Below are positions 2,114 through 33,335 of a stretch of 64,000 bases of DNA, in pieces (positions within the stretch are counted from its first letter, which is position 1; each line of letters opens with the position of its first letter). The stretch is from positions 1,251-65,250 of the forward strand of contig CAZCFB010000006.1 of assembly GCA_964497805.1 (NCBI GenBank). The letters are read 5' to 3'. The notes under the pieces were generated by a model. It was not told the origin of the DNA. It searched no databases and saw nothing but the letters and a program-made list of their open reading frames with translations. Source of the DNA: an uncultured Kofleriaceae bacterium. Lineage in GTDB: Bacteria > Myxococcota_A > Polyangia > GCA-2747355 > CAZCFB01. The position numbers and the translations under genes were made by a program.

Positions 2114-2129
2114 GGGCAGGAGCCTTCTA

Positions 2130-3278: not shown

Positions 3279-3301
3279 GGGTCGCTATTGCGGCCCGCTG
3301 G

Positions 3302-4097: not shown

Positions 4098-5126
4098 CTA
4101 TCCTAAATGAAGAGTCGATTTTTTGTAATCTTGGGCGGTCCCGACGTGGCGGATGCGGGGCGGGTGGCGCAGCCGGGGCGGGCCAACCGGGAGGCCGACC
4201 AGGCGCCTGGTCAGACCCCAGGCCGAGCCCAGGCCGTAGCCCAGGTGGATGGTGGGGAAGATGAGGAGCAGGTGCGCGAGGGCCAGGGCCGGCCGGCGCA
4301 TGCGGGGGGCGGTGAACAGGGCGGCGCCCAGGCCGGTGGTGGCGTACAGCACCAGCGGGATCAGGGTGAGCAGCCCGGGCCACATCAGGGCCGCTGCCAC
4401 CAGGAGCAGCAGCGCCAGGGGGGCGAGCAGCATGTACTCCTCGGCGGCGGCGCGCGGGGAGAAGTGGGCCATGCGGCTGGCGCCATAGCGGAAGTTCTGG
4501 GCGAAGAGCCGGGGCAAGGAGCGGCGCTGGCTGCGCCGTGCGGTCATGAGCGGGTGGTAGGCGCAGGTGAGCCCGCCCGCGCGCAGGCGCTTGATCAGCT
4601 CGGTCTCCTCGTTGGGGTAGAGGGTCTCGTCGAAGCCGCCCACCCGCTCCATGGCCTCCCGCGTGATCACCAGGTTGGCTGAGAGCAGCTCCTGCTCGCT
4701 GGTGAGCCTCACGGGGCCATACGGCACGAAGCGGTTGCGCACCGGACCGAGGCCGAACACCGAGGCCATGGCCGCGCCCACCGCGCGCTGGAAAGGCCCA
4801 TCGCCTTTTGAGGTGAGCACCGGGCCGCCTACACAGCAGACTCCGGGCTCGGGGCAACCGTCGCGCAGACACTCCAGGGCGCGCACCAGGGCCCAGGGAT
4901 CCAGCTCGGTGTCGTCGTCGATGAAGTAGAGCACCTCGCCCGTGGCCGAGGCCATGGCCGCGTTGCGCTGGGCCGAGGGGTTCTCCCCCTCCACCACGAG
5001 CACCTCCAGCCGGTCGGGCGGGTAGCGCAGGCTCGGGACGCCGTTGAGCGCGGGGGGCGGAGGGTTGCCCGGGCGCACCGGGATGATGATGCTCACCGAG
5101 GGGTAGCGCTGTCGCTCCTGGCTCAC
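4098..5126 (-). CDS. Glycosyltransferase family 2 with C-terminal membrane helices
   Basis: SVSIIIPVRPGN, the acidic motif YFIDDDTEL and a hydrophobic C-terminal third. The start overlaps the stop of the upstream gene (5123-5126). Confidence 0.8.
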   Translation of the reverse strand: MSQERQRYPSVSIIIPVRPGNPPPPALNGVPSLRYPPDRLEVLVVEGENPSAQRNAAMASATGEVLYFIDDDTELDPWALVRALECLRDGCPEPGVCCVGGPVLTSKGDGPFQRAVGAAMASVFGLGPVRNRFVPYGPVRLTSEQELLSANLVITREAMERVGGFDETLYPNEETELIKRLRAGGLTCAYHPLMTARRSQRRSLPRLFAQNFRYGASRMAHFSPRAAAEEYMLLAPLALLLLVAAALMWPGLLTLIPLVLYATTGLGAALFTAPRMRRPALALAHLLLIFPTIHLGYGLGSAWGLTRRLVGLPVGPPRLRHPPRIRHVGTAQDYKKSTLHLG

Positions 5127-6193
5127 GCGGGCCTCACCTGGCGGGGACCGAAGAGCAGCTGGCGCAGCAGCGCCACGTTGGCATCCTTTTCCCGGGAGAG
5201 GGAGAAGCGGTACACCTCGGAGCGGCTGGCAAGGGCGGCGGCGGCCGCGGCGCGAGAGGCGGCCAGGGCGGCCTTGCGTACCAGGTCGCGGGCCTCCAGG
5301 CGGAGGAAGTACTCCACCAGCTGGGGCAGGCCGAGCCCCACCACCATCTCCCTGGCCAGGTGAGGCAGGGCGGCCCTGGCCGGGGCCCGCTCCAGCGATG
5401 GGGGACCGGCGAGCAGGCGGCGGCCAACCAGCAGCAGGTCCGGGCGGGCGCGGGTGTGGGCCGGGGCCACGCGGTCGCCCAGGGTGTCCAGGTCAAGCAG
5501 CCACTTGGTCCCGTGCTCCCTGCGGCGCATGCGGCGGAGCTTGCCGGGGTCCACGCCGGGCGGCGGGCTGGAGAAGCCAAGGCGCAGGGGGAAGGGCAGG
5601 ACCTGGCCCCGGCGGTCAACCAGGGCCATGTCGTCACCCATCAGGCGCACGCCGGGCTGGCGCAGGGCGCCCACGCCGAGGGTGGTCTTGCCCCCGCCCG
5701 AGGGGAGCAGACAGAGCGTCGCCCGCCCCTGCACTTCCAGAGCCAGGGCGTGCACCCGGTGCAGGCCGCGGCGGTCCAGCAGCTCGCCGGCGCGGGAGAG
5801 GGTGAGCAGATAGAGCAGCTCGTGCAGCAGGTCCGGGTCCTCGCTCCACACGCCCCCGGCCTCGTGGTCGAAGTCCCAGCGGGCCAGGGCCTTGCCCTGG
5901 TAATCGACCCAGCGAATGTGGCCGCGCTGGTAGGCGCAGAAGCCGGGCTGCTCCAGCACGCTGGGCCAGGCCGGCAGGTCGCCCCACGGCGGGCGGCGCA
6001 GGCTCCCCTGGATCTCCACGTCCATGCCGGATGTCGGGGCGGGACCTGCGCCCGCCTGCGCAAAATATGAAAAATCCCGCCCCAGCGCCCCCGCGATGTC
6101 AGGCGCATCGCAGGTGACCTGAACGCCCACGCCGTGGAAGTCCAGGGCCAGGGGATCGGAGATGGTCAGGCGCTGTGGCGCGGGGGAACTCAT
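5123..6193 (-). CDS. HPr kinase/phosphorylase-like P-loop protein (HprK-related kinase)
   Basis: LLPSGGGKTTLGVGALRQPGVRLMGDDMALV matches the HprK C-terminal pattern, which is a P-loop followed by h-h-[AG]-DD. There is no HPr or PTS context. Confidence 0.6.
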   Translation of the reverse strand: MSSPAPQRLTISDPLALDFHGVGVQVTCDAPDIAGALGRDFSYFAQAGAGPAPTSGMDVEIQGSLRRPPWGDLPAWPSVLEQPGFCAYQRGHIRWVDYQGKALARWDFDHEAGGVWSEDPDLLHELLYLLTLSRAGELLDRRGLHRVHALALEVQGRATLCLLPSGGGKTTLGVGALRQPGVRLMGDDMALVDRRGQVLPFPLRLGFSSPPPGVDPGKLRRMRRREHGTKWLLDLDTLGDRVAPAHTRARPDLLLVGRRLLAGPPSLERAPARAALPHLAREMVVGLGLPQLVEYFLRLEARDLVRKAALAASRAAAAAALASRSEVYRFSLSREKDANVALLRQLLFGPRQVRPA

Positions 6194-6218
6194 CGCACCC
6201 CCATGATCACCGATGTGC

Positions 6219-7802
6219 TCACTCCAGGTCCATCCCCTTGGAGTGGACCGTCACGCGGGCGCCCCTGGCCAGCTTGACCACCTTCATCAGGGGGTGGCGA
6301 AGGCCCAGGAGCTCGAGGGCCTCGGAGGAGCCCCGGGTGGGGCGGAAGGGGATGTCGAACAGGACCAGGTGCCGGGTGCCGGGGTGGATCACCTCGGGGC
6401 TGCCCACGTTAACCATCACCTTGGCGCTGCCCTGGTGGTGGCGCACCACCTCCTTGATGCGCCGGGGCTTGAGGAGGTCGAACCGGGGCGGGCTGTACAC
6501 CTCCCACTCGGGCAGGTGATAGGAGATCACCCGCGCGGCGCGGGCGATGATGGCCGTGTCCCCGGGTGAAAGATGGCGCAGGCGTTGGAGGCGGAGCGTG
6601 AGGTCCCGGCGCTCCAGGTCCAGGGCAGCGGCCCTGTGGCGCAGGTGCGGTCGGCCCAGGGGGAGGGGGAGCTCGGTACAGAAACCCAACGCATGGTGCA
6701 GGGCCAGCCCAAGGGCCAGGGCGGGGCCGAGCCAGCGGGCGGGGCTGCCGAGCCGCCAGAGCCAGGCCGTGGCCAGACCCATGGTCAGGAACACGGGCGG
6801 GGTGATGAGCAGCACGGTGGACTGGCTGCCCTGCTTGACCAGCAGGAAGAAGGCCCAGGCGGGGAGGGCCCAGAGCAGGAGAAGCCGGGCAGCCCTGCCA
6901 TGGCGCGCCAGGCGGCGCATGAGCAGGGCGGCGCCGGCCAGGAAGAGGGGCAGGCCCGCCAGCCCGGCGGTGCCGCCGCCGTAGCCCATGAACAGGGTGA
7001 ACAGACGGTAGAGCCTGCTGGCGCGCACCTGGCCGCCCGGGGCGAGGCTCCCACCGGGGGAGGGGGCCATGCGGGCCAGGGACTCGCCGTAGCTTTGCAG
7101 GCCGCCCGAGGAGAGGAGGGGGGGCAGGAGCAGGGCCAGGCCAGTGAGCAGCCCGGCTGTGGCCAGCCCTACCACCCAGCTTCGAAGGGGCTTCGCCCAC
7201 AGGGCGTGCAGGAGCAGTGGCCCGAGGATGACCGCGTTCTGCTGGCGCAGCAGGGCGGCCAGGCCGAGGGTCGCCCCGGCGAGCAGGGCGGCCTTCACGT
7301 CGTGGCGGTCAGCCAGGGCGGCCCGGTGGCAGGCCCAGCCGGTCAGGAGGGAAAAGAAGAGATCCGTGGCGTAGGGCAGCGGGGCCGTTCCCTGGGCCCA
7401 GACAAAGGGAGATGTGCTCAGGAGCAGCGCGGTGGCCAGCCCTGCGGCGCGGCCCCCCATGGCCCGGCCCATGAGATAGGCGACGCCAGCGGCCAGGCCG
7501 CTCATCACCGCGCTCAGCCCCACCAGGGCCAGGCGCGCGTCGCCGGCGGTGATCAGGAGCGCGGCCCTGGCGAGCAGGATGTAGAGGGGGTAGCCGGGGG
7601 GCTGGGGCTGGTGCAGGCCAACGTCGTAGTTGACCAGGGCGAAGGCGTAGTTGGCCGCGTCGTGGCTGTCGATGAGAGGCGAGAGGAAGGGGAGGCGGGA
7701 GAGGAAACCGGCGAGGGTGAAGAAGAGGAGGGCGGCGGTGTCGGCGGGGCGCCAGTGGGCAGGGGGGGTCACTGTTTTGGATGGTAACATCCGGAGAATC
7801 AT
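6219..7802 (-). CDS. Polytopic GT-C-fold glycosyltransferase (ArnT/PMT-like) with a soluble C-terminal domain
   Basis: Many predicted TM helices. The first loop carries DSHDAANYAFALVNYDVGLHQPQPPGYPLYILLAR, which resembles GT39/GT83-type enzymes. I place the start at ATG 7802 (MILRML). The ORF-track extension to 8159 is antisense to the GT4 gene and has low-complexity composition. Confidence 0.6.
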   Translation of the reverse strand: MILRMLPSKTVTPPAHWRPADTAALLFFTLAGFLSRLPFLSPLIDSHDAANYAFALVNYDVGLHQPQPPGYPLYILLARAALLITAGDARLALVGLSAVMSGLAAGVAYLMGRAMGGRAAGLATALLLSTSPFVWAQGTAPLPYATDLFFSLLTGWACHRAALADRHDVKAALLAGATLGLAALLRQQNAVILGPLLLHALWAKPLRSWVVGLATAGLLTGLALLLPPLLSSGGLQSYGESLARMAPSPGGSLAPGGQVRASRLYRLFTLFMGYGGGTAGLAGLPLFLAGAALLMRRLARHGRAARLLLLWALPAWAFFLLVKQGSQSTVLLITPPVFLTMGLATAWLWRLGSPARWLGPALALGLALHHALGFCTELPLPLGRPHLRHRAAALDLERRDLTLRLQRLRHLSPGDTAIIARAARVISYHLPEWEVYSPPRFDLLKPRRIKEVVRHHQGSAKVMVNVGSPEVIHPGTRHLVLFDIPFRPTRGSSEALELLGLRHPLMKVVKLARGARVTVHSKGMDLE

Positions 7803-9006
7803 GACCGACCTCCAGGGCCTCAAGACCCTCCTCGTCACCACCGAGTACCCGCCTGATCCGGGAGGGGTGGGGGTTTCCAGCCAGCGCATCGCGCGGCTTC
7901 TGGCGGGCCTGGGCATGGAGGTTTCCGTGGCCCATGTGCGGGTAGCGGATGGGCCGGTGCTGCTGGACGAGGCGGTGACCACGGAGCGGGATGGGGAGGT
8001 GGAGGTGTTGCGGCTGGACCAGTCGCTCCAACCCGGGCTGGGGGATCCCATGTTCGACCGGGCCCACCAGGTCATGCGCGGGCGGCAGGAGCTGTTCCAG
8101 CTGTTGCTGCGCCTGCAGCGGGAGCGGCGCTTCGACGTGCTCAACGGGCTCTTCCTCACGGGGGTGGGCCGGGAGGTTTGCGCCGTGGCTCACCTCACCG
8201 GGGCCCGGGCCATGGTCTCCATCCGGGGCAACGATGTGGGCAAGCACTTCTTCCGCGATGAGCTGGTCGGGGTGCTGCGCTACGTGCTGGAGCGCGCCCA
8301 CCTGGTCACCTCGGTGGGGCGGGACCTGCTGGAGCTGGCGGGCACCATCTGCTCCCTGGAGGGCAAGGGCCTGGTGATCCCGAACAGCGTGGACCCGACC
8401 CTGGCGCCCGCCGCGGCGGAGCCCGTTCCTGACGGCCCGCTCCTGCTGGGATCCCACGGCATCTTCCGCTTCAAGAAGGGGATCCCGTACCTGTTCAAGG
8501 CCGCCGCCGGGCTGCGGGAACGGGGTATGGATCCGCGCCTGTTGCTGGTAGGCGGGACCAGGGACGCGCGGGAGGACGAGGTGCACCGAGGGTTCATGTC
8601 CCGGTTCGGCTTCAATGAAGCGTCCGTGGAGACTACGGGCCCGTTGCCCAGGCGGGAGGCGGTGGCGAGGCTGGGGCGGGGAACCAGCGTGGCGGTCTAT
8701 CCGTCCCTGTTCGGCGAGGGGTGCCCCTCCACGGTGCTGGAGGCCATGCTCCTGGGGCTCCCGGTCGTGGCCAGCGAGGTGGGTGGGATCCCCGAGCTGA
8801 TCCGCCACGGTGAAACCGGGATCCTGGTTCCTCCGGGCGACGGGCAAGCCCTGGAGCGAGCCCTGGCAAAGCTGGCCGGGGATCCAGTTCTGCGCCGGGC
8901 AATGGGGGACGCCGCCCGCCGCGCGGCCCTGGATCGTGGCCCGGAGGTTGAAGCCGCCGCCTGGTCCGACGCCTACCGCCGGGTGATGGCAGGTCATGCA
9001 GCCTGA
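7801..9006 (+). CDS. Glycosyltransferase family 4 (GT-B)
   Basis: N-terminus MTDLQGLKTLLVTTEYPPDPGGVG. The C-terminal EGCPSTVLEAMLLGLPVVASEVGGIPELI is the E-x7-E region. The ATG at 7801 overlaps the divergent start at 7802. Confidence 0.85.
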   Translation: MTDLQGLKTLLVTTEYPPDPGGVGVSSQRIARLLAGLGMEVSVAHVRVADGPVLLDEAVTTERDGEVEVLRLDQSLQPGLGDPMFDRAHQVMRGRQELFQLLLRLQRERRFDVLNGLFLTGVGREVCAVAHLTGARAMVSIRGNDVGKHFFRDELVGVLRYVLERAHLVTSVGRDLLELAGTICSLEGKGLVIPNSVDPTLAPAAAEPVPDGPLLLGSHGIFRFKKGIPYLFKAAAGLRERGMDPRLLLVGGTRDAREDEVHRGFMSRFGFNEASVETTGPLPRREAVARLGRGTSVAVYPSLFGEGCPSTVLEAMLLGLPVVASEVGGIPELIRHGETGILVPPGDGQALERALAKLAGDPVLRRAMGDAARRAALDRGPEVEAAAWSDAYRRVMAGHAA

Positions 9007-12000
9007 CAACCAGGGCGCTCTCCTGCTGGTGGCCGACGTGCAGCGGTTCTGCACCCATGACGGGCCGGGCCTGCGCACGGTGGTCTTCCTCAAGGGGTGC
9101 CCCCTGAGCTGCCGCTGGTGCCAGAACCCCGAGACCATCTCCCCCCGACCGGAGATCGCCTTTTACGCCCACCGGTGCGCCGGCTGCCAGAGGTGCGTGG
9201 ACGTGTGCGAGGCGGGGGCGCTCTCACCCCGGAGCTTCCCGTTGCAGCGTGACCGGTGCCGGGCGTGCGGCGCCTGCGCGCGCGTGTGCCCCCACGAGGC
9301 GCGGAGGCTGGTTGGGGAGCGCGTGAGCGCGGAGCGGCTGGCGAAACAGGTCCTGGCGGATCAGGCGTTCTTCCAGGCCTCGGGGGGCGGGCTCACCCTC
9401 TCGGGCGGAGAGCCGCTGGTCCAGCACCGCGCCGCAGCCAGGCTGCTCCAGCTGTGCAAGGACGTTGGAATCCACACGGTGATCGAGACCAGCGGCGCGG
9501 TGAGCTGGGCCGCGTTCCAGGCTGTGCTGCCCCACACCGACCAGTTCTTCCTCGACATCAAGGCGGGCGGGCCCGGCCTCCACGGGGAGCTCACCGGCAG
9601 CGACGGGCAGCAGGTGCGCGCCAACGCGCTCCGGCTGTTGGAGGCCGGCGCCGAGGTCACCTTCCGTATGCCGGTGGTGCCGGGGCACAACGACAGCGAG
9701 CGGAGCGTGGCCTCGGTGGCCCAGTTTCTCCTGGAGCTGGGCCGGCGGGAGGTGCGCCTGCTGCGCTACCACGCTGGGGGCCAGGCCAAGGCGGCGGCGA
9801 TCGAGAGCGAGCTGCCCGGTCTGGAGATCAACGCGGAAGAGGCCGACCGCGCGCTCGCCCGGGTGGCCAGGCTGATGTCAGCCCACGGGGTGGAGGCGCG
9901 AGTGGAGGGGGAGGCGCGGCCAGTGGAGCAGGCGCCGGCCTCCGAAGATCCGTTCACCCCTCGGGTGCGGCGGCTGCGGGACACGGTGCAGGCCACCAGG
10001 CCGGGGGTCTGCGCCGAGCGGGCCCGCATCGTCACCGGCTACCACAAGGATCGCGTCAACCGGAACAAGCCGGCGGTCATCCAGCGGGCCGAGGCCCTGT
10101 GCCAGGTGCTCCGCCGGCGCACCGCGAAGATCTATCCGGACGAGCTGCTCGTGGGCAACTTCAGCTCGCGGCGGGTGGGCGGCTCGATCTTTCCCGAGCT
10201 GCACGGCGTGGCCCAGCTGCTGGACCTGCACAAGCTACAGACCCGTGAGGTGAACCCGCTGGAGATTCGCCCGGAGGATCGCGCCGCCCTGGTCCGCGAG
10301 GTGCTCCCCTTCTGGGCCACCCGCCACCTGGCCGCCCGCGCCTTCCCCCTCCACCAGGCGCCCGGCTTCTACAGGGAGTCTCTCGACTCCCAGAAGTACC
10401 TGATCAACGAGGCCAGCGGCATCTCTCACTTCGTGCCCGACTACGAATTGCTGCTGCGCGAAGGGACCAGGGGCATCGCGCGGCAAGCGGCTCGGCGACG
10501 GGAGCGCGCGGCGGATCAGGCCTCGCGTGATTTCTATCTCGCCGTACAGATCGTGTGCAGGGGCGTGGAGGCCATGGCCGCCAACCTGGCGCGGGAGGCT
10601 CGGGACATGGCCCCGCGGGAAGGCGACGCGGCGCGGAGGTCCGAGCTGGAGGAGATCGCCCGGACCTGCCAGCGGGTCCCGGCCCAACCCGCCGCGACCC
10701 TGCGCCAGGCGCTCCAGTCGTTGCTGCTGGTTCAGATCGCCCTGAACCAGGAGAGCCTGGACAACAGCGTCTGCCCGGGGCGGCTGGACCAGCTGCTCTG
10801 GCCCTACTACCAGGCCGACCTGGATCGCGGCGAATTGACGCGCCGGGACGCGGCCGAGCTCATCGGCTGCTTCACCGTCAAGATGAGCGAGATCATCCCG
10901 GTCTTCTCCAGCTACGTCACCCGGTTCCACGGCGGCATGTTCAACGGCCAGGTGGTGGTGGTTGGCGGCCAGGACCGGGACGGGAAAGACGCGGAGAACG
11001 AGCTGACCCACATCTTCCTCGACGTCATGGAGCGGCTGCGGATGCGGCAGCCCAACTTCCACGCGCGCCTGCACCGGGGGAGCACCGACGGCTACGTGCG
11101 GCGGGTGGCCGCCGTGCTGCGTGGCGGGAGCGGCGCCCCCTCGCTCATGAACGACGAGGTGGTGGTGCCCATGCTGCGCTCCCGGGGCATGACCCGCGGC
11201 GACGCCCTGGACTACAGCCCGGTGGGGTGCGTGGAGCCGGTCTCGTGCGGCCGAACCTTCGGGTCCACCGACGCCGCGCTCACCAACGTTGCCCGCTGCC
11301 TGGAGTGGGCCCTGGGCACACGGCGGGGCGGCGCGCGCACCCCTGCTCCCGGCGAGCTCTCCTCGGCGGACGCCCTGTTCAGCGCGTTCGAGGCGCAGGT
11401 GGAGCACCTGGTGGCGAGGCTCATGCGGCACCTCCAGCCCATCGAGTTGGCCAACGCCCGGTTCCACCCCACGCCGCTGACCTCTGCCCTGCTGCAGGGC
11501 TGCCTTCAGGCGGGGCGCGACGCATCGGCCGGCGGCGCGCGCTACAACGCCAGCGGGGTCCAGGCCGTGGGGCTGGTGGATGTGGCCGACTCCCTGGCGG
11601 CGGTGGCCGAGGTGGTCTTCCAGGCCAGGCTGTGCAGCATGGCCACCCTGATCCGGGCGCTGAAGAGGAACTTCGCCGGGTACGGCTGGCTCCAGGGGCA
11701 CCTGGCGCGGGCGCCCAAGTTCGGCAACGACGAGCTCGTGGTGGATGGCTGGGCCGACGCGGTGATGGGGGCCTTCGCCGGCGCCCTGTCCCGGTACGAG
11801 AACACCCGGGGCGGGCCCTACCTGGCCGGTTTCTATTCGGTGACCAGCCACGCGGCCTTCGGCGAGCATGTGGGCGCGCTCCCCTCGGGGCGGCCGGCGG
11901 GGGCGCCCCTGGCCAACGGCCTGTCTCCGGCCGACGGCATGGATCGGCAGGGCCCCACGGCGGCGCTCAGCTCGGTGGCCCGCCTGGACCTGGTGGGCAA

Positions 12001-12295
12001 GGCGAAGAACGGGATCACCGTCAACCTGAAGCTGGATCCCACGGCCCTGCCGGGGGGGGAGGAGGGCGTGGACGCGGTGTCCTCTCTGATCCGCGGTTAC
12101 GCCGGGGCGGGGGGGATGCAGGTCCAGCTCAACGTGATGGATCCCGCTGTGCTGCAGGAGGCGAAGGAGCACCCGGAGCGGCACCCCTGGCTGCTGGTGC
12201 GGGTCTCGGGCTACAGCGCCTACTTCGCGGACCTGGCGCCGGGGGTGCAGCAGGAGCTCATCGATCGGACCTGCCACAGGGGCGCGCTGAGCTGA
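8996..12295 (+). CDS. Fusion protein: glycyl-radical-enzyme activating enzyme (aa 1-~300) joined to a PFL2-class glycyl radical enzyme (aa ~320-1099)
   Basis: The activase part has GCPLSCRWCQNPE (CX3CX2C at C35/C39/C42), two ferredoxin-like motifs (CAGCQRCVDVC, CRACGACARVC) and GGEPL. An Ala/Glu/Pro linker spans about aa 301-319. The GRE part has the catalytic loop VGCVEP (Cys745, codon 11228-11230) and the glycyl radical motif RVSGYSAYF (Gly1072, codon 12209-12211). It is one uninterrupted 1099-codon frame. Confidence 0.85.
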   Translation: MQPDNQGALLLVADVQRFCTHDGPGLRTVVFLKGCPLSCRWCQNPETISPRPEIAFYAHRCAGCQRCVDVCEAGALSPRSFPLQRDRCRACGACARVCPHEARRLVGERVSAERLAKQVLADQAFFQASGGGLTLSGGEPLVQHRAAARLLQLCKDVGIHTVIETSGAVSWAAFQAVLPHTDQFFLDIKAGGPGLHGELTGSDGQQVRANALRLLEAGAEVTFRMPVVPGHNDSERSVASVAQFLLELGRREVRLLRYHAGGQAKAAAIESELPGLEINAEEADRALARVARLMSAHGVEARVEGEARPVEQAPASEDPFTPRVRRLRDTVQATRPGVCAERARIVTGYHKDRVNRNKPAVIQRAEALCQVLRRRTAKIYPDELLVGNFSSRRVGGSIFPELHGVAQLLDLHKLQTREVNPLEIRPEDRAALVREVLPFWATRHLAARAFPLHQAPGFYRESLDSQKYLINEASGISHFVPDYELLLREGTRGIARQAARRRERAADQASRDFYLAVQIVCRGVEAMAANLAREARDMAPREGDAARRSELEEIARTCQRVPAQPAATLRQALQSLLLVQIALNQESLDNSVCPGRLDQLLWPYYQADLDRGELTRRDAAELIGCFTVKMSEIIPVFSSYVTRFHGGMFNGQVVVVGGQDRDGKDAENELTHIFLDVMERLRMRQPNFHARLHRGSTDGYVRRVAAVLRGGSGAPSLMNDEVVVPMLRSRGMTRGDALDYSPVGCVEPVSCGRTFGSTDAALTNVARCLEWALGTRRGGARTPAPGELSSADALFSAFEAQVEHLVARLMRHLQPIELANARFHPTPLTSALLQGCLQAGRDASAGGARYNASGVQAVGLVDVADSLAAVAEVVFQARLCSMATLIRALKRNFAGYGWLQGHLARAPKFGNDELVVDGWADAVMGAFAGALSRYENTRGGPYLAGFYSVTSHAAFGEHVGALPSGRPAGAPLANGLSPADGMDRQGPTAALSSVARLDLVGKAKNGITVNLKLDPTALPGGEEGVDAVSSLIRGYAGAGGMQVQLNVMDPAVLQEAKEHPERHPWLLVRVSGYSAYFADLAPGVQQELIDRTCHRGALS

Positions 12296-12301
12296 GGGCC
12301 A

Positions 12302-14038
12302 TCAGGTGGGGCCAGCTTCCCACATCTCCTTGTAGCGCGGGCATGACGCCAGCAGCTCCTGGTGGGAGCCGGAGGCCAGGACCTTGCCCTGGTCCAGCAC
12401 CAGGATCTTGGGGTAGTCGCTCACTGCCGCCAGGTGGTGGGTGGCCGCCACCACGGTGCGCCCCTCGGAGAGGTTCTTGATGGCGCGCTGCACCGCCTGC
12501 TCGCTGGCCGGATCGATGGCCGCGGTGGCCTCGTCCAGCAGCACCAGGGGCGGGGCCTTGAGCAGGGCGCGGGCCAGGCAGATGCGCTGGAGTTGGCCCA
12601 CCGACAGCTCCCGTCCGCCCGGGCCGATGGGGGTGTCGTAGCCCCGGGGCAGGGCCTCCACCTCGTCGTGGACCAGGCAGCGTTCAGCCGCGGCCCGGAT
12701 CTCTTCCCGCGTGGCCTGGGGCCGGCCGTAGGCGATGTTGTCCGCCACCGAGGCCGCGAAGACGAAGGGGGTCTGGGTGACGTAGGCCATCATGCTGCGT
12801 ACGTCGTCCAGGCAGAGCCGGCGCAGGTCGGCGCCGTCGACCAGGACCTCCCCCGCGTCGGGATCAACCAGCCGGGCCAGCAGGTTGAGGGTGGTGGTCT
12901 TGCCCGCGCCGGAGGGGCCCACAAGGGCCAGGCGCTCGCCCTTGCGGATGGAGAATGAGACGCCATCCAGGGCCGGCTGGTCGCCCAGGGTGACGCTCAC
13001 GTTTCGCACCTGAACCTCCTCGGGGGAGGCCTCGACGGGCAGCGCGTCCGGCTGGTCTGTGATGGCCGGTTCCTGGGCAAGCAGCTCGTCCAGGCGCCGC
13101 AGCGAGGGGAGGCTCGAGCCCACGAAGACCCAGCGCTGGTTCATGATGTCCAGGGGGCGGTGGATGGAGCGGAGGGCCACCAGGAAGGCCACCAACGTGG
13201 GCGCGTCCAGGGCGCCGCGGCTGACCTGGTAGCCGCCCAGCGCGATTGCCAGCACCACGGAGAGCCCGCCCAACGCCTCGAAGATGCTCGAGGCCAGGGC
13301 GCGGTCACGAAGCACCGCGTGCTGGTCATCCTGCCAGCGCCTGGCCGACGCAAGGCCCAGCTCCACGGCGCGCTCCTTGGCGCCGTACCCCTCGATGGTG
13401 CGGATGCCGCCCAGCAGCTCCATGAGGGTGTCGATGAGGCGAAAGCGGCTCGCCCGGGCCTCCTGGGCCGTGGCCAGCAGGCGCCGGCCGAGCAGCACGG
13501 TGGGCAGGGCCGCGGCGGGCAGCACCAGCAGGCACCAGAGGGTCAAGCCCGGGCTCAGGCGCACCAGGGCCAGCAGCACCCCGGCGGCCAGGACCCCCTC
13601 GGTGAGGGCCTGGATCCCGGCCAGCACCACGCCCCGGGCGGCGATGATGTCGGTGCGCACCGCGTCCACCAGGTCACCGCGGGAGTGGGCCTGGATATAG
13701 GGCAAGGAGAGGTGGAGCAGGTGGGTCATCACCCGGGTGAGCAGCCCGCGCTCCACCTGCTTGGCCGCGGCGTGCTGTGCCCGCGTGGCGGCGTAGGCCA
13801 TGGCGCTGGCCGCCAGGTAGAGCAGCAGGGTGGCGCCGGCGATGAGGGGCAATCCCCTGAACGGGTCCCCTGTCTCCCCGGTGGCCTCCAGCGCCCCGGT
13901 CAGCAGGTCCCGGATCAAGAAGAGCACAGTGACCCAGCATGCGGCGCGGCCAACGGCCAACAGTATGGCCCCCGCCACCAGGGGCCAGCGTCGGGTGAGC
14001 TCCTGGCGGGTCAGGGTGGCTACAGCAGCGCGCGGCAT
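12302..14038 (-). CDS. ABC exporter, fused permease + ATPase (MsbA-like type I exporter)
   Basis: The N-terminal half is a ~6-TM domain. It has Walker A GPSGAGKTT, signature LSVGQLQR and Walker B LVLLDEAT. Its start overlaps the upstream gene. Confidence 0.9.
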   Translation of the reverse strand: MPRAAVATLTRQELTRRWPLVAGAILLAVGRAACWVTVLFLIRDLLTGALEATGETGDPFRGLPLIAGATLLLYLAASAMAYAATRAQHAAAKQVERGLLTRVMTHLLHLSLPYIQAHSRGDLVDAVRTDIIAARGVVLAGIQALTEGVLAAGVLLALVRLSPGLTLWCLLVLPAAALPTVLLGRRLLATAQEARASRFRLIDTLMELLGGIRTIEGYGAKERAVELGLASARRWQDDQHAVLRDRALASSIFEALGGLSVVLAIALGGYQVSRGALDAPTLVAFLVALRSIHRPLDIMNQRWVFVGSSLPSLRRLDELLAQEPAITDQPDALPVEASPEEVQVRNVSVTLGDQPALDGVSFSIRKGERLALVGPSGAGKTTTLNLLARLVDPDAGEVLVDGADLRRLCLDDVRSMMAYVTQTPFVFAASVADNIAYGRPQATREEIRAAAERCLVHDEVEALPRGYDTPIGPGGRELSVGQLQRICLARALLKAPPLVLLDEATAAIDPASEQAVQRAIKNLSEGRTVVAATHHLAAVSDYPKILVLDQGKVLASGSHQELLASCPRYKEMWEAGPT

Positions 14039-15558
14039 CGGTCCAGCATATCAAGGGAAGCGCCCCGGTACGCCTCCAACAGGGAGCGGTTGGTTGGGGC
14101 GGCCGGGGAGGTGCGGGCGAGGCTGCTCAGCGCGCGGGTCATGTCGTCGTCGGGGAAGGCGTCCCGGTGAGCCTCCAGGATCTCCGAGCCCACTGTCACC
14201 GGCCCGCCGCCAGCCAGGTACACCCTGTAGGACGCGAGGCTGAGGAGCGGGTTGAGGCAGGCGGCGAAGGGGCGCCCGAGGTGGTGGTCCAGGCTGGCGC
14301 GCAACACATGGCAGCGCTCCACCGTGAGGCGGCGGTCCATGGCCAGGCGGATGATCCCGGGCGGAGGTGGCCCCGGGGCTGGTGGGGCGGGGCAAGCCCC
14401 CACGGGCAGGTGGGTGCGGCGGAGGTGAAAGCTCTCCAGGGCGTAGTTGGCGCCGCACAGGCCCATGAGCGCGGCCCAGGTGTGCGGCCCCATGATCCGG
14501 GGCTGCACCCTGGCCCGGGTGCGGTTGAGCAGACCGCCGGCCGCGGCCATGGTCCGCGCATACTCACCGGGGTCCTCCTCCGTGAGCACCAGGCAGAGCC
14601 CCAGGGCCGGATCGTCGTGGACCGGGCCAGCGGGCCCGAGCAGGTGGGAGCGTGGGTAGAGCAGGGCGGCCACCCGTTGGGGGAGCCTCCGGGCCAGCTC
14701 GTGGGCCAGGCTGGTGGCCAGCGCAGGGGGCGCCGCCCGGCCAGGCAGCAGGGGCTCGGCGCAGTGGAGATCAACCAGGCGCGCGTTGTACCTGTCCAGG
14801 GCCCAGAGCAGGTGGTAGCCCAGGCGCGCGCGCAGGTCCGCGGCCTCCTCGGCAGCGGCAAACCCATCGGTCCGGTCCAGGCGGTCCAGGAGGCGCCGCA
14901 GACCGTGGTCAGGATCTAGCGACTCCATCCCTGGCGCGCCTTGCAGGTGGCACAGGCAGCGGACCATCTTGTGGGCCAGACGCAGCTCCGAGCCGAGGTA
15001 GCCAGCCGGGGCCTTGGCGTCACGCCACAGCTTCGGGTGCAGGTGCTTGTCCAGCAGGCCGTGGAGGTCCGGGGAGGCGGGCGCCCGCCTGGGCGGCGAC
15101 GGCTCCCAGCTGCGGATCAGGTGGCGCACCTCCTCGCCGAACACCAGGGTCCAGCGCCGCGGCGGCGCGTTGGGGTGCAGGGCGATGGCCCGCCAGCCAA
15201 GGTCAGGCAGGGCCAGATCCTCCTCGGTGAACACCGGCACTGTGCCGGGGCTGGTGGAGAGGAAGGGGAACACCCGGCCCAGCGCCTTCAGCTCCCGCCA
15301 GAAGGATTCCAGCGAGCGGGCCTGCAGCTGGGGAGGATCGCCGTGCAGCACGAGGAGGAGGTCCAGGTCGCTGCTCCCCGGCATCCACTGCCGGGCGTGG
15401 TAGTCCCGCGGGATGTAGAGGGAACGCACCGACGGGATGCGGGCGCACACCCTGGAGAGGGCGGCCAGACAGGCGTCGTAGGGCAGGGCCGTGAGCCGGC
15501 GCATGCCGGGGTTGCGGTTGAGGCGCAGGGTGGCGTTGATGAGCCCCCGCCGGATCAT
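14020..15558 (-). CDS. Nucleotidyltransferase-fold protein (hypothetical, 512 aa)
   Basis: GSSDLDLLLVLHG fits the G[SG]...D[IL]D motif of polymerase-beta-type nucleotidyltransferases. The rest has no motif I recognise. Confidence 0.45.
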   Translation of the reverse strand: MIRRGLINATLRLNRNPGMRRLTALPYDACLAALSRVCARIPSVRSLYIPRDYHARQWMPGSSDLDLLLVLHGDPPQLQARSLESFWRELKALGRVFPFLSTSPGTVPVFTEEDLALPDLGWRAIALHPNAPPRRWTLVFGEEVRHLIRSWEPSPPRRAPASPDLHGLLDKHLHPKLWRDAKAPAGYLGSELRLAHKMVRCLCHLQGAPGMESLDPDHGLRRLLDRLDRTDGFAAAEEAADLRARLGYHLLWALDRYNARLVDLHCAEPLLPGRAAPPALATSLAHELARRLPQRVAALLYPRSHLLGPAGPVHDDPALGLCLVLTEEDPGEYARTMAAAGGLLNRTRARVQPRIMGPHTWAALMGLCGANYALESFHLRRTHLPVGACPAPPAPGPPPPGIIRLAMDRRLTVERCHVLRASLDHHLGRPFAACLNPLLSLASYRVYLAGGGPVTVGSEILEAHRDAFPDDDMTRALSSLARTSPAAPTNRSLLEAYRGASLDMLDRCRALL

Positions 15559-16364
15559 CGGGGCACCTCTCCTCGGCGGGCCAGGTCCGCGAACCGGTGC
15601 TGGCGCAGGGCCGCGGGCAGCCGCTCAAGGTCCACGCGCTCGGTGCGAGGCCACCGATCAGGCTCCTTGTGGAACAGCCGCGTGGTGTCCGGGGTCCAGC
15701 CCAGCCACTTGTCCTGGTACCAACCCTGGCTCACCTCGGCGCTGTGGCCGAAGGTGTTGATCTTCTCCCACATGCGCGCGTCGGTCTGCACATAGCCGGC
15801 GTGCCAGTAGCGCAGGTCGTCGGGCAGGTCCACCCGGGATCCCGTGGGCACGCGCCAGGCCACGAACCTGCTCTCATCTGTGATGTGGAGCGCCACCGGG
15901 AGCCGGGTCTCCCGCCCCCCCGCCACCCGCCTGTCCAGGCCGCGGAACAGGTGGTTGGCCCGGCCCCAGTACACCCGGTCTCTGGAGGGGGCGGCCCCGG
16001 CGATGGCCCGAACGCGCCCCAGGGCGCCGGCAGGGTAGAACTCATCCGCGTCCACGATGAGGCAGAGCCCGGCGCCCAGCTCCCGCGCCAGATCCAGGCC
16101 CGCGTCGCGCATGGGCTCCTCCGCCTCCCAGCGCCCACGCACCACGCTCAGCCCGGGCATCCGCGCCGCCGCTCGGGCCAGGATCTCCGCGGTCCCATCC
16201 GGCGCGCCGAATTGCTGGCGGGCCTCGGGGTTGTAGGCGGAGAAGGGCGCGTCCGAATAGACCACCACCATGTGCTCCACCTCGGGGGCCAGCGCCTCAA
16301 GGCAGGGGCCAAGGTACTCCTCCTGGTTGTAGGCCAGCACCAGGGCCGCGGCGGTCAGGGACAT
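15555..16364 (-). CDS. Glycosyltransferase family 2-like protein
   Basis: ALVLAYNQEEYLGPCLEAL at the N-terminus and an LIVDADEFY DxD-type motif. It has a 4-nt overlap with the downstream gene. Confidence 0.55.
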   Translation of the reverse strand: MSLTAAALVLAYNQEEYLGPCLEALAPEVEHMVVVYSDAPFSAYNPEARQQFGAPDGTAEILARAAARMPGLSVVRGRWEAEEPMRDAGLDLARELGAGLCLIVDADEFYPAGALGRVRAIAGAAPSRDRVYWGRANHLFRGLDRRVAGGRETRLPVALHITDESRFVAWRVPTGSRVDLPDDLRYWHAGYVQTDARMWEKINTFGHSAEVSQGWYQDKWLGWTPDTTRLFHKEPDRWPRTERVDLERLPAALRQHRFADLARRGEVPR

Positions 16365-16416
16365 TCAGCCAGCGTACCCCAAACTCAGCGGCTAGGGAGG
16401 AACAGGGCGGTGATGT

Positions 16417-18045: not shown

Positions 18046-18097
18046 GATTCAGCCACACTAGAGCAGCGTCGGGAATGATGTCCAGATCGCATCATGG

Positions 18098-20194: not shown

Positions 20195-21102
20195 CTGGCT
20201 TGCCCTCTCACCGCCCCGTGAAGGTACCCCAACTCCTCCATGAGCTCGCCGGCCACGGCCAGGAAGGCATCACGGTCGCCAGGGGAGAGCTGGGCCGCCT
20301 GCAGCCTGTCCACATCGGGCTGCAAGAAGCGGGGCAGGGCGCTGAGGCTCATCCACTCCTTCTCACCCTCGGTCCCGGAGCTGCCGCGCACTCCCGGGGC
20401 GGTGTAGTGGGTGCGCGCCTTGAGCCGCACGGGCTGGTCCGGCGAGAGGTCCAGCCCCGCCGCCCTGTACACCCGCGCCGCGAAGCGCCGGGGTTGGGCC
20501 AGCAGCTCCTCGAAGCGCACCAGGGTATGGCGGGGCAGGTCGCGGCTGCTCTGCTGCATGCGGCGGGTGAGGGTGACGTACCGCCGGGCGAAGGCATGGG
20601 CTGAGGTCGCGGTGCCCCGGCGCAGGGCGCTCTCACACAGGGCCAGGCCGTTGCGCAGGATCCCGACGAAGCAGGCGTCGGGAAACACCCGGGCCAGGGC
20701 GGGGGCCGCCTGCACCAGGCCGTCCAGGTTCTTGGCCGCCAGCCGGGCCGCCCGCACCTGGCCCGGGGAGTAGCGCTGGCCCGGCGCCCGGTACACGTTG
20801 TCCTCCTGGCACAGCGTGCGCAGCTTGCCCCGGAAGAGGCACAGATCCAGGTGCGCCGCGGCTGCCCGGGGCAAGGGGGCGCGTCCGGCAGGATCAGGCC
20901 GGGCCATGTAACCGGGCCGCGCCCCGAACAGGGTGAAGAGCGCGCCGTCGAGCTTGCCCGCCAGGCCCCGCTGGAACAGCTCGTGGGTCTCCCACACGGG
21001 TGAGCAGACGCCGGGGTGGCTCTGCAAGATGTTCCAGAGCAGGTTGCTGCCCGAGCCGGCCAGGGCTTCGATGAAGATGGGCTGCCGGTTGAGCCGGTTC
21101 AC
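20191..21102 (-). CDS. Sulfotransferase-family protein
   Basis: The N-terminal PAPS-binding-loop-like motif is IFIEALAGSGSNLLWNILQSHP, and RFEELL...GL lies in the C-terminal half. It has 4-nt overlaps with both neighbours. Confidence 0.6.
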   Translation of the reverse strand: MNRLNRQPIFIEALAGSGSNLLWNILQSHPGVCSPVWETHELFQRGLAGKLDGALFTLFGARPGYMARPDPAGRAPLPRAAAAHLDLCLFRGKLRTLCQEDNVYRAPGQRYSPGQVRAARLAAKNLDGLVQAAPALARVFPDACFVGILRNGLALCESALRRGTATSAHAFARRYVTLTRRMQQSSRDLPRHTLVRFEELLAQPRRFAARVYRAAGLDLSPDQPVRLKARTHYTAPGVRGSSGTEGEKEWMSLSALPRFLQPDVDRLQAAQLSPGDRDAFLAVAGELMEELGYLHGAVRGQAR

Positions 21103-33061: not shown

Positions 33062-33256
33062 TCAGTCCTTGGCCTGGTAGAAGAGGGTGACGGTCAGGCA
33101 GTGGAACTCGCTATCAGAGCTCTGGGTCACGATCTTGTCGGTGATCTCCAGCTCGGGGTGCTTTCGCATCCAGCGGGTGATCGTTTCGCCCAGTTCCTCC
33201 CGCTCCCTGGCCTTTGTGGCCGAGAATACCTTGGCGCCGCTAAAAATCATGCCCAT
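33062..33256 (-). CDS. Small hypothetical protein (64 aa)
   Basis: The ORF has normal, non-low-complexity composition and is divergent from the next gene. No motif recognised. Confidence 0.35.
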   Translation of the reverse strand: MGMIFSGAKVFSATKAREREELGETITRWMRKHPELEITDKIVTQSSDSEFHCLTVTLFYQAKD

Positions 33257-33335
33257 CTCCTTTCAACATAGCTGGAAAATTCAATGCCATTTCGACTCGG
33301 GATTCGGTCTAGCATGTGGGACATCACCTGTCCAG

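What the first reader, a model, noticed from the sequence alone, without database searches (positions are those of the whole stretch)
8996..12295. Natural single-polypeptide fusion of a glycyl-radical-enzyme activase to its glycyl radical enzyme, inside a glycosyltransferase operon
One uninterrupted 1099-codon frame encodes two enzymes. The first is a complete GRE-activating radical-SAM domain, with CPLSCRWC plus two ferredoxin-type CxxCxxCxxxC motifs typical of PFL2-class activases. A ~20-aa Ala/Glu/Pro linker follows. The second is a complete PFL2-class glycyl radical enzyme, with the catalytic loop VGCVEP and the radical motif RVSGYSAYF. In characterised systems (PFL/PflA, choline TMA-lyase CutC/CutD, glycerol and hydroxyproline dehydratases) the activase is a separate protein that acts catalytically. 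I am not aware of a characterised activase-GRE fusion. The Cys-x-Glu (GCVE) loop is the arrangement seen in the 1,2-eliminase/dehydratase subgroup, which hints at radical dehydration or C-X cleavage of a polyol- or sugar-like substrate. The gene's start overlaps the stop of a GT4 glycosyltransferase (8996 vs 9006), and it is surrounded by glycan-building genes rather than catabolic or microcompartment genes. That is an unusual setting for a GRE.
Basis: partly seen in the sequence, partly recalled or inferred. Interest (0 to 1): 0.85.

Follow-up and report, generated by a model that had tools for sequence, protein, structure and literature searches.

The report
Activase fused to glycyl radical enzyme
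One 1099-residue protein joins a radical-generating activase to the oxygen-sensitive glycyl radical enzyme it switches on; the fusion is real, conserved in many uncultured anaerobes and apparently unstudied, but its link to sugar-chain genes is specific to this lineage.

Summary
Window 8996-12295 (+) is one uninterrupted 1099-codon ORF. It encodes a complete PFL2-class activase (aa 12-291) with CX3CX2C and two CX2CX2CX3C motifs. A 20-aa unconserved linker follows, then a complete PFL2-type glycyl radical enzyme (aa 321-1095) with GCVEP and RVSGY.

The fusion is not an artefact. Three separate metagenome assemblies are nucleotide-identical over the gene. 95 of the 120 best database clusters are fused, and every catalytic residue of both halves is invariant.

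It is also not a one-off. A GRE-domain tree shows two large all-fused clades that arose independently from adjacent split AE->GRE gene pairs. The fusion occurs in more than 10 phyla, an Asgard archaeon MAG and the eukaryote Anaeramoeba.

No searchable paper describes it, including a 2026 GRE review. The only precedent found is the eukaryotic NrdDG fusion, which has the reverse domain order.

The active site matches C-O-cleaving dehydratases (Cys-x-Glu plus the His164, Asp447 and Tyr640 equivalents of glycerol dehydratase). No equivalog cut-off is met, so the substrate is unknown.

The "glycosyltransferase operon" is only GT4 plus the fusion. That pairing holds in the 82% relative and is gone at 75%. 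Neighbours across 16 related loci share no family.

Verdict: an undescribed fused variant of a known system, of moderate interest.

The parts
8996..12295 (+). Whole fused activase-GRE ORF (1099 aa plus stop)
   Evidence: identical on three independently assembled contigs
9029..9868 (+). Activase (radical SAM) domain, aa 12-291
   Evidence: TIGR02494 at 287 bits, above the 174 cut-off; Pfam Radical_SAM and Fer4_12; best solved relatives are PFL-AE 8fo0 and 3c8f
9098..9121 (+). CX3CX2C motif (C35, C39, C42) for the SAM-binding [4Fe-4S] cluster
   Evidence: invariant in 25 fused homologs
9176..9289 (+). Ferredoxin-like insert with two CX2CX2CX3C motifs (C61/64/67/71 and C88/91/94/98)
   Evidence: all eight Cys invariant
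9896..9955 (+). Linker, aa 301-320 (ARVEGEARPVEQAPASEDPF)
   Evidence: Lies between the AE and GRE homology regions. It is 17-22 aa long and unconserved in clade A. AF2 pLDDT is below 50 at 309-314. No stop codon in the DNA.
9956..11863 (+). GRE barrel (PFL-like domain), aa 321-956
   Evidence: Pfam PF02901, E 5.6e-161; Foldseek TM 0.92 to glycerol dehydratase 1r8w and to 2f3o
11225..11239 (+). Cys loop GCVEP (C745 thiyl site, E747 general base)
   Evidence: C745 and E747 invariant in all 204 sequences tallied
11912..12226 (+). Glycyl radical domain, aa 973-1077
   Evidence: Pfam PF01228, E 2e-25
12200..12214 (+). Gly loop RVSGY (G1072 is the radical site)
   Evidence: G1072 conserved in every clade
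7801..9006 (+). GT4 glycosyltransferase, translationally coupled upstream gene (11-nt overlap ATGCAGCCTGA)
   Evidence: Pfam Glycos_transf_1 and Glyco_trans_1_4. The 401-aa gene call comes, mapped to window coordinates. Sequence. The C-terminus is 80% identical in the 82% relative L008.
4098..7790 (-). Divergent block: GT2, a 356-aa unknown and a PMT_2-type glycosyltransferase. Context only; absent from the 75% relative.
12302..24881 (-). Convergent block: ABC exporter, two unknowns, GDSL/TPR, pentapeptide protein, sulfotransferase, GT28-like, HAD, GT4, radical SAM. Context only; absent from the 75% relative.

Best explanation
This is a real, functional single-polypeptide glycyl radical enzyme that carries its own activase.

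The N-terminal radical-SAM domain has one SAM-binding [4Fe-4S] cluster and a ferredoxin-like insert for up to two more. Inferred from the family mechanism: it reductively cleaves S-adenosylmethionine, and the resulting 5'-deoxyadenosyl radical abstracts a hydrogen from Gly1072 in the C-terminal glycyl radical domain. That happens in the same chain or in the partner chain of the GRE dimer. A flexible tether of about 20 residues links the two halves.

The activated GRE then works like the C-O-cleaving 1,2-eliminases (B12-independent glycerol and propanediol dehydratases). The radical passes to Cys745, the thiyl radical abstracts H from a carbinol carbon, Glu747 deprotonates that hydroxyl, the His478 equivalent protonates the neighbouring leaving group, and water (or another small group) leaves to give an aldehyde. 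The substrate is probably a small vicinal diol or polyol but is unknown.

The fusion arose by loss of the stop between an adjacent AE->GRE gene pair. It has been kept throughout a clade of at least 69 sequences. It makes the system a self-contained one-gene module with no conserved genomic partners. The GT4 and glycan setting in this window is a juxtaposition specific to this lineage.

Shown by the sequence data: ORF integrity, domain completeness, invariance of catalytic residues, clade structure, and lack of a conserved context. Inferred: all the chemistry, self-activation, and cis versus trans geometry.
For: ORF and domains.

Not an artefact: identical on three assemblies, and the P0003 truncation is explained.

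Purifying selection on both halves: in 25 fused homologs at 54-82% identity, C35/C39/C42, the eight ferredoxin-type Cys, H478, C745, E747, D759, Y947 and G1072 are invariant, while aa 299-319 are not conserved.

Recurrence: 95 of 120 top clusters are fused, median length 1094 aa. 36 of 88 loci are fused by explicit ORF check.

Phylogeny: an NJ tree of 205 GRE domains needs only 4 state changes, one of which is the P0003 artefact. The window's clade is all-fused, and its sister group is split AE->GRE pairs at 52-57% identity.

One-step origin: split relatives have AE directly upstream with a 4-20-nt overlap or a short gap. Four loci have both genes in the same frame, separated only by TAA or TAG.

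Dehydratase-type site: the alignment to 1r8w places H164, S282, C433, E435, D447 and Y640 on H478, S591, C745, E747, D759 and Y947. These are conserved across clades. The roles of CXE and His164 are taken from PMC13450708.

Fold: AF2 pLDDT 84.7, pTM 0.86, with low confidence in the linker. Foldseek TM is 0.90-0.92 to GD, PD and 2f3o.

Solo gene: no neighbour cluster is conserved and no Pfam family occurs in more than 2 of 74 neighbours. Synteny with L008 and L009.
Against: - There is no biochemical or expression data.
- The TIGR01774 score (641.8) is just under its cut-off (678.2), and every characterised equivalog model is far below cut-off (464/1000 and lower). Substrate and even reaction type are extrapolated.
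- The Ser282 equivalent varies (S 52, A 17) within the clade.
- An eliminase producing an aldehyde usually has adjacent aldehyde-processing genes or a microcompartment. None is conserved here.
- The AF2 Cys loop (743-752) has pLDDT below 50.
- Cleavage of the linker after translation cannot be excluded.
- The 11-nt overlap with GT4 implies co-expression in this lineage, which a pure 'accidental neighbour' view does not explain.
Confidence: 0.7

Rival explanations
1. Biosynthetic reading. In this lineage the fused GRE works with the co-translated GT4 and the surrounding glycan, sulfotransferase and exporter genes, making or modifying a sugar- or polyol-derived building block of a surface glycoconjugate.
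For: ATG/TGA overlap of 11 nt with GT4. The coupling is conserved in the 82% relative L008. The gene is flanked on both sides by GT2, PMT_2, GT4, GT28-like, sulfotransferase, HAD and ABC exporter genes. A split sister-clade locus (L015) also has a divergent PMT_2 and RmlC/RmlD nearby.
Against: The 75% relative L009 has the fusion directly between orthologs of window 2127-3745 and 24905-26116, with both glycan blocks missing. At 68% and about 57% identity the contexts are ribosomal, acyl-CoA or unrelated. No glycosyltransferase family recurs among 74 neighbours of 16 related loci. The L015 PMT_2 is not orthologous to the window's (no tblastn hit). The active-site signature is the same as in relatives without a glycan context.
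Confidence: 0.12
2. The fusion is only genetic. The polypeptide is split into separate activase and GRE proteins, either by internal translation initiation or by proteolysis in the linker, so it behaves like an ordinary two-protein system.
For: In the window an SD-like GGAGG (9910-9914) lies 8 nt before an in-frame GTG at 9923. Another GGAGG (9892-9896) precedes the GTG at 9902. A gene caller chose 9923 as a start on the truncated contig. The linker is predicted to be disordered.
Against: The SD-plus-start signal is absent from the other 9 clade-A loci examined and from all 24 clade-B loci. In the window it can be explained by GAG/GGG codons of a Glu/Gly-rich linker. Maintaining one open frame across two large clades would be unnecessary if separate proteins were the functional form. 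Internal initiation would also still leave full-length fused protein.
Confidence: 0.1
3. The GRE half performs different chemistry from diol dehydration. It could be C-N or C-S elimination, or a reaction on acyl- or hydrocarbon-derived substrates, as has been proposed for the closest solved relative, A. fulgidus PFL2/PflD.
For: The best solved match is 2f3o (509 bits), described in the review as 'a GRE of unknown function'. No equivalog cut-off is met. Two clade-A loci (L010, L019) sit beside acyl-CoA dehydrogenase, BKACE, biotin carboxylase and AMP-binding genes. The CXE motif is also present in the solved C-N lyase CutC (alignment).
Against: The full His/Cys/Glu/Asp/Tyr set of glycerol dehydratase is invariant. 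Per the review, all six known C-O eliminases retain CXE. The acyl-CoA neighbours occur in only 2 of 16 loci.
Confidence: 0.15
4. Sequencing or assembly artefact, or a pseudogene: a lost stop codon or frameshift joined two ordinary adjacent genes.
For: Close split relatives have AE and GRE overlapping or separated by a single stop, so a single error could mimic a fusion.
Against: 0 nt differences over 3300 nt on three contigs from three samples. 69 clade-A and 64 clade-B sequences from unrelated projects keep the frame open. Catalytic residues of both halves are invariant.
Confidence: 0.01

Closest known systems
B12-independent glycerol dehydratase and 1,2-propanediol dehydratase with their separate activases (C. 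butyricum GD, 1R8W/1R9D; R. inulinivorans PD, 5I2A; PD, 9RCO)
   Same: Same fold (Foldseek TM 0.90-0.92). Same Cys-x-Glu loop and the same His164, Asp447 and Tyr640 equivalents. The activase is of the same PFL2 class, with a ferredoxin-like insert.
   Different: Only 32-34% identity. Equivalog thresholds are not met. In those systems the activase is a separate, catalytically acting protein and the genes lie in catabolic or microcompartment loci. Here the activase is covalently fused at 1:1 and the gene has no conserved partners.
Archaeoglobus fulgidus PFL2 (PDB 2F3O), a GRE of unknown function
   Same: Best sequence match among solved structures (509 bits, aa 20-777 of the GRE half). It has a GCVE loop and the His equivalent.
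   Different: It is unfused. The Ser282 equivalent is Ala and the His281 equivalent is Gln. Its function is also unknown, so it gives no functional transfer.
Split AE->GRE orthologs, the sister group of the window's clade (e.g. L015, L022, L024, L088; P0064-P0077)
   Same: 52-57% identity in the GRE domain. Same active-site signature E472/H478/N590/S-or-A591. Same gene order, with AE immediately upstream.
   Different: They are two polypeptides. AE stops 4-20 nt inside the GRE start or a few nt before it.
Eukaryotic NrdDG (class III ribonucleotide reductase fused to its activase), Lundin et al. 2010, PMC3019208
   Same: A glycyl-radical enzyme and its radical-SAM activase in one reading frame. 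That paper proposed the fusion eases horizontal transfer of a two-gene system. The parallel here is the fused clade-B member in the eukaryote Anaeramoeba.
   Different: Opposite domain order (enzyme, then activase). A different GRE family (RNR) with an activase that has no ferredoxin-like domain. Restricted to a few eukaryotes and noted only at sequence level.
Second fused clade ('clade B': P0063 Anaeramoeba, P0084-P0120, L048-L093)
   Same: Same N-terminal-activase architecture and the same Cys/Glu/His/Asp/Tyr/Gly catalytic set.
   Different: Only 35-44% identity in the GRE domain and an independent fusion event. The linker is shorter (about 15 aa) and semi-conserved. 38 of 40 members lack the CX2CX2CX3C motifs. 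A GntR-type regulator is often directly upstream.

Membership tests
Glycyl radical enzyme superfamily | PFL-like 10-stranded barrel plus C-terminal glycyl radical domain | tested here: met
   PF02901 E 5.6e-161 and PF01228 E 2e-25; Foldseek TM 0.92 to GD
Glycyl radical enzyme superfamily | Gly-loop fingerprint RVxG[FWY]x6-8[FL]x4Qx2[IV]x2R (PMC13450708) | tested here: inconclusive
   RVSGYSAYFADLAPGVQQELIDR matches except for Leu1088 in place of Ile/Val. The strict regex matches only 9 of 95 fused homologs, so it is too narrow to serve as a test.
Glycyl radical enzyme superfamily | Catalytic Cys on the Cys loop | tested here: met
   C745 in GCVEP, conserved in every clade
GRE 1,2-eliminases (C-O cleaving dehydratases) | CXE motif on the Cys loop | tested here: met
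   C745-V-E747; the motif's definition is from PMC13450708
GRE 1,2-eliminases (C-O cleaving dehydratases) | Equivalent of the GD His164 general acid, plus the Asp447 and Tyr640 hydroxyl-binding residues | tested here: met
   H478, D759 and Y947 align to them and are conserved in the clade
GRE 1,2-eliminases (C-O cleaving dehydratases) | Demonstrated dehydration of a vicinal diol or amino alcohol | not testable with these tools
   Needs an anaerobic enzyme assay
Characterised equivalogs (HpsG, HpfG, CutC, HypD, PflD-type PRK09983, indoleacetate decarboxylase) | NCBIfam equivalog score at or above the curated cut-off | tested here: not met
   Best are 464/1000 (HpsG), 442/1109, 425/1050 (CutC) and 416/1100 (HypD)
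TIGR01774 PFL2-3 subfamily | Score at or above 678.2 bits | tested here: not met
   641.8 bits with full-length coverage 4-785 of 786; a near miss
GRE-activating enzymes (TIGR02494, PFL2-class) | Score at or above the cut-off, and a CX3CX2C motif | tested here: met
   287.3 bits against 174.35; C35/C39/C42
GRE-activating enzymes (TIGR02494, PFL2-class) | [quoted passage not shown] | tested here: met
   Two CX2CX2CX3C motifs at 61 and 88, all eight Cys invariant in clade A
GRE-associated microcompartment (GRM) loci | BMC shell protein genes next to the GRE and AE | tested here: not met
   No BMC-domain hit among the ORFs scanned from about 0.5 to 28 kb or among 74 neighbours of related loci
NrdDG-type enzyme-activase fusions | Class III RNR catalytic domain followed by a C-terminal NrdG | tested here: not met
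   The domain order here is activase then GRE, and the GRE is PFL2-type. NrdG2 scores only 53 bits against a 131 cut-off.

The most novel reading that the evidence does not exclude
In this lineage the self-activating GRE has been recruited into a glycoconjugate pathway. It is co-translated with a GT4 and sits between glycosyltransferase, sulfotransferase and exporter genes. In that role it would perform a radical dehydration or C-X cleavage on a sugar- or polyol-derived precursor. That would be the first glycyl radical enzyme with a biosynthetic role in cell-surface glycan assembly, and its permanently attached activase would keep re-installing the radical.
Probability: 0.1. Interest if true: 0.85.

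Novelty: new variant of a known kind. Interest (0 to 1): 0.55.

Why it matters
GRE activation needs the buried glycyl radical domain to swing out into the activase.

Structural gaps this could address:
- My PDB fold search found no chain that covers both an activase and a GRE.
- The activase half matched only PFL-AE-type structures, which lack the ferredoxin-like insert.
- The 2026 review states that the structure and function of that auxiliary domain are unknown.

A natural, evolutionarily stable, covalently tethered 1:1 AE-GRE could give a stoichiometric, homogeneous sample for cryo-EM or crystallography of the activation complex. It would also allow a clean genetic test of cis versus trans activation.

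In practical terms it is a one-gene, self-activating GRE module, which suits heterologous expression and engineering.

In evolutionary terms, two independent fusions and their spread to many phyla, an Asgard archaeon and a eukaryote show how fusion turns a two-gene system into a transferable unit. The same idea was proposed for NrdDG.

It also points to a large family of dehydratase-like GREs in sediment and low-oxygen-zone bacteria whose substrate is unknown.

Tried and rejected
1. Internal translation start in the linker. An SD-like GGAGG plus in-frame GTG occurs at 9902 and 9923 in the window, but in 0 of 9 other clade-A loci and 0 of 24 clade-B loci. Rejected as a conserved feature.

2. 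Sigma-54 promoter, prompted by the sigma-54 activator encoded at 484-1869. There were 56 matches to TGGCAC-N5-TTGC at up to 2 mismatches, against 81 expected by chance, and none was well placed. There were no sigma-70-like promoters or intrinsic terminators in 7-13 kb.

3. Conserved gene neighbourhood. All-vs-all clustering of 1204 ORFs from 88 loci and a pooled Pfam tally found no partner for the window's clade. A GntR-type regulator recurs only in clade B.

4. I first read the tblastn coverage '10-1094' as meaning fused genes, including in cultured Parahaliea, Thalassolituus and Sphingosinicellaceae. An explicit ORF check showed many of these loci are split, and the cultured ones have the order GRE->AE. 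No cultured organism with the fusion was found among the 80 reference loci.

5. Foreign-DNA signature of the glycan blocks. GC is 0.64-0.74 throughout with no clear break, and there are no tRNA genes. Whether the blocks were inserted here or deleted in L009 is unresolved.

6. Literature searches for a described PFL2-type fusion found nothing beyond NrdDG.

7. Source names for the exact protein: none are given.

8. The strict published Gly-loop regex is too narrow for this family.
Full report
**1. Observation**

Window 8996-12295 (+) is a single ORF of 1099 codons starting with ATG. Pfam finds Radical_SAM (30-236), a Fer4 motif (85-103), PFL-like (321-956, E 5.6e-161) and Gly_radical (973-1077, E 2e-25).

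NCBIfam finds the GRE-activating-protein model TIGR02494 over aa 12-291 (287 bits, cut-off 174). It finds the PFL2/glycerol-dehydratase subfamily model TIGR01774 over aa 322-1095 (641.8 bits, just under the 678.2 cut-off).

The two homology regions are joined by aa 301-320, ARVEGEARPVEQAPASEDPF. The ATG overlaps the TGA stop of the upstream GT4 by 11 nt.

**2. Is the junction real?**

The exact protein is encoded on contigs assembled from different samples. Three of these are nucleotide-identical to the window over all 3300 nt. The sequence is held by NCBI, JGI and ENA.

The one 100%-identical 'GRE-only' entry (P0003, 790 aa) comes from a contig whose first base is window position 9876. The frame is open to the contig edge, and the gene caller simply took the GTG at 9923 as a start.

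In an alignment of 25 fused homologs (54-82% identity), every cluster-ligating Cys of the activase half and the catalytic Cys, Glu and Gly of the GRE half are invariant. Residues 299-319 are not conserved. An AlphaFold2 model is confident for both domains (mean pLDDT 84.7, pTM 0.86) and drops below 50 at 309-314. An artefact or pseudogene explanation is therefore excluded for practical purposes.

**3. How common is it, and how did it arise?**

Of the 120 best 90%-identity clusters, 95 carry both halves, with a median length of 1094 aa. At 50% clustering these collapse into a handful of representatives among about 4,100 GRE-like clusters with E<1e-30. The fusion is thus a minority architecture with deep lineages.

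A scan of one genome per species returned 80 loci. Tblastn coverage of both halves does not prove fusion, so I checked ORF continuity explicitly. Of 88 loci, 36 are fused, 31 have separate adjacent genes (21 AE->GRE, 10 GRE->AE), and 21 have no activase within 1.5 kb upstream. This corrected an early misreading: the cultured Parahaliea, Thalassolituus and Sphingosinicellaceae loci are split.

A neighbour-joining tree of 205 GRE domains needs only four fused/split changes, one of which is the P0003 artefact. The window lies in an all-fused clade A (57-100% GRE-domain identity; 69 sequences) whose sister group consists of split AE->GRE pairs (52-57%). A second all-fused clade B (35-44%; 64 sequences) arose separately. 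Clade B includes Syntrophia, Spirochaetota, Clostridia, Hydrogenedentota, a Promethearchaeota MAG and the eukaryote Anaeramoeba flamelloides.

Split relatives have the activase stop overlapping the GRE start or lying just before it. In four loci the two genes are in the same frame, separated only by TAA or TAG. One substitution there would create a fusion.

Linkers are 17-22 aa and variable in clade A. In clade B they are about 15 aa and semi-conserved. Clade B mostly lacks the ferredoxin-type Cys motifs.

**4. What the enzyme probably does**

The GRE half is closest to A. fulgidus PFL2 (2f3o, 509 bits), then CutC, glycerol dehydratase and propanediol dehydratase. The model superposes on GD, PD and 2f3o with TM 0.90-0.92.

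In the alignment to GD (1r8w), residues H164, S282, C433, E435, D447 and Y640 correspond to H478, S591, C745, E747, D759 and Y947. All but S591 (S or A) are invariant in clade A, and they are conserved in the other clades too. Clade A and its split sister group share the same signature, so the fusion did not accompany a change of active site.

According to the 2026 review (PMC13450708), all six known C-O-cleaving GRE eliminases keep the CXE motif. In GD, Glu435 deprotonates the C1-OH while His164 protonates the leaving C2-OH. I therefore infer a dehydratase-type 1,2-elimination on a small diol or polyol. No equivalog model comes near its cut-off, and the best structural relative is itself of unknown function, so the substrate is open.

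**5. Context**

The window's organism is an uncultured high-GC (68.6%) bacterium. Its glycogen phosphorylase is closest to 'Deltaproteobacteria'/Myxococcales MAGs (62-66%) and Anaeromyxobacter (58%).

Only GT4 (7801-9006) shares a strand and an operon-like arrangement with the fusion. The block GT2 / unknown / PMT_2 is divergent. The block ABC exporter / unknowns / GDSL / pentapeptide / sulfotransferase / GT28-like / HAD / GT4 / radical SAM is convergent.

The 82% relative keeps the GT4 coupling. In the 75% relative the fusion lies directly between orthologs of window 2127-3745 (rSAM/SPASM plus a roughly 270-aa unknown) and 24905-26116 (alpha-amylase family). Both glycan blocks are missing there.

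At 68% identity the neighbours are rplM-rpsI and a pseudouridine synthase. At about 57% they are acyl-CoA genes or unrelated genes.

Clustering 1204 neighbouring ORFs found no conserved partner for clade A. A pooled Pfam tally of 74 neighbours from 16 loci found no family in more than two, and no enrichment of glycosyltransferases. GC content gives no sign that the blocks are foreign. No promoter or terminator signal was informative.

**6. Mechanistic reading of the fusion (inference)**

The review notes that the N-terminal helices of GREs form the dimer interface, while the glycyl radical domain lies on the periphery of the dimer, from where it can flip out to the activase. An activase tethered by about 20 flexible residues to that N-terminus could plausibly reach either its own or the partner's radical domain. 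The tools here give no coordinates, so cis versus trans is undecided.

The consequences of fusion would be:
- obligatory 1:1 stoichiometry, with up to three [4Fe-4S] clusters per chain;
- guaranteed partner specificity;
- immediate local re-activation after radical loss;
- independence from operon structure.

The last point fits the 'solo gene' pattern and the patchy distribution across domains of life.

An alternative is that separate proteins are made from an internal start. The window has SD-like GGAGG before in-frame GTGs at 9902 and 9923, but no other fused locus examined has such a signal.

**7. Comparison with what is known**

Searches of 8 million open papers and preprints for natural activase-GRE fusions found none. 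That includes a 142,000-character GRE review from June 2026 and a 2024 family-wide survey, neither of which contains 'fused' or 'fusion'.

The only precedent found is the eukaryotic class III RNR 'NrdDG' fusion. It has the opposite order and was noted only at sequence level, with the suggestion that fusion aids horizontal transfer.

No PDB chain covers both halves, and no activase with a ferredoxin-like insert appears among solved relatives of the activase half. Database pipelines do already see the dual nature: JGI product names for P0011 and P0039 combine both functions.

**8. Verdict**

This is a real, conserved, apparently uncharacterised fusion of a dehydratase-type GRE to its activase. 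It is widespread rather than unique, it has a precedent in the superfamily, and the glycan-operon setting is specific to this lineage.

I class it as a new variant of a known kind. Interest is moderate (0.55). The value lies mainly in giving the field a natural tethered activation complex and a one-gene self-activating GRE, and in flagging a large family with an unknown substrate.

Noticed in passing
L023 10889-10894; L033 10886-10891; L068 1677-1685; L094 6815-6823: In four split relatives the activase and GRE genes are in the same reading frame, separated only by TAA, TAA-TAA or TAG, with an SD-like GGAGG inside the activase's last codons (e.g. GGAGGA TAA GCC ATG). A single substitution would make a fusion. 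Stop-codon readthrough was not examined.
   Followed up: partly
clade B loci, e.g. L058 9170-9874, L066 9223-9927, L071 9203-9925, L082 3972-4682: The independently fused clade B (33-44% identity) has a GntR/FadR-type regulator 74-275 nt upstream in about 9 loci. Its linker is semi-conserved (AECYDLDxxRHKAVF), and 38 of 40 members lack the CX2CX2CX3C motifs. It appears to be a distinct fused system that may be regulated by a small-molecule effector.
   Followed up: partly
P0063 (Anaeramoeba flamelloides, 458-kb contig); L070 (Promethearchaeota MAG) 10001-13240: Fused clade-B genes occur in a eukaryotic genome scaffold and in an Asgard archaeon MAG. This suggests inter-domain transfer of the one-gene module, parallel to the NrdDG argument.
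   Followed up: no
window 9892-9925: SD-like GGAGG motifs lie 5 and 8 nt upstream of in-frame GTG codons 303 and 310 in the linker. They occur only in this lineage. They could permit some GRE-only translation, but are more likely a by-product of GAG/GGG codons.
   Followed up: yes
window 2130-3278 (+) and 3302-4087 (-): A radical SAM/SPASM protein and an adjacent roughly 261-aa protein with no Pfam hit lie downstream of a HAMP histidine kinase and a sigma-54 response regulator. Both genes are syntenic with the fusion in the 75% relative L009, where the rSAM protein also has a SEC-C motif. Function unknown; possibly a peptide-modifying system.
   Followed up: partly
window 12302-24881 (-): A long same-strand cluster: ABC exporter, two proteins without Pfam hits (512 and 269 aa), GDSL/TPR protein, a 698-aa pentapeptide-repeat protein, sulfotransferase, GT28-like, HAD, GT4 and a short radical SAM protein. 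It looks like a pathway for a sulfated glycoconjugate or glycolipid. It is absent from L009.
   Followed up: partly
window 23922-24881 (-) and 33087-34304 (+): There are two further radical SAM genes in the window, one with a Radical_SAM_C domain. Counting the SPASM protein and the fused activase, that makes four radical SAM domains within 35 kb.
   Followed up: no
L021 9962-13154: One clade-A reference locus (also P0062, 834 aa) has the fused frame broken inside the GRE domain: 834 aa, then a separate 139-aa fragment. This is probably a frameshift, a pseudogene or an assembly error.
   Followed up: no
window 39417-41759 (+): A 780-aa ORF with no Pfam hit and an unusually low first-position GC (0.54, against about 0.7 elsewhere). 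It is followed by a VIT-VWA-TonB_C protein (41884-44799), a DUF3604 protein and a sulfatase with a long N-terminal extension.
   Followed up: no
L010 422-9920 and L019 3017-7293: Two clade-A fused genes sit directly downstream of an acyl-CoA cluster (AMP-binding ligase, carboxyltransferases, biotin carboxylase, BKACE, enoyl-CoA hydratase, acyl-CoA dehydrogenase). It is the only hint of a catabolic context in the clade, and it is seen in just 2 of 16 loci.
   Followed up: partly
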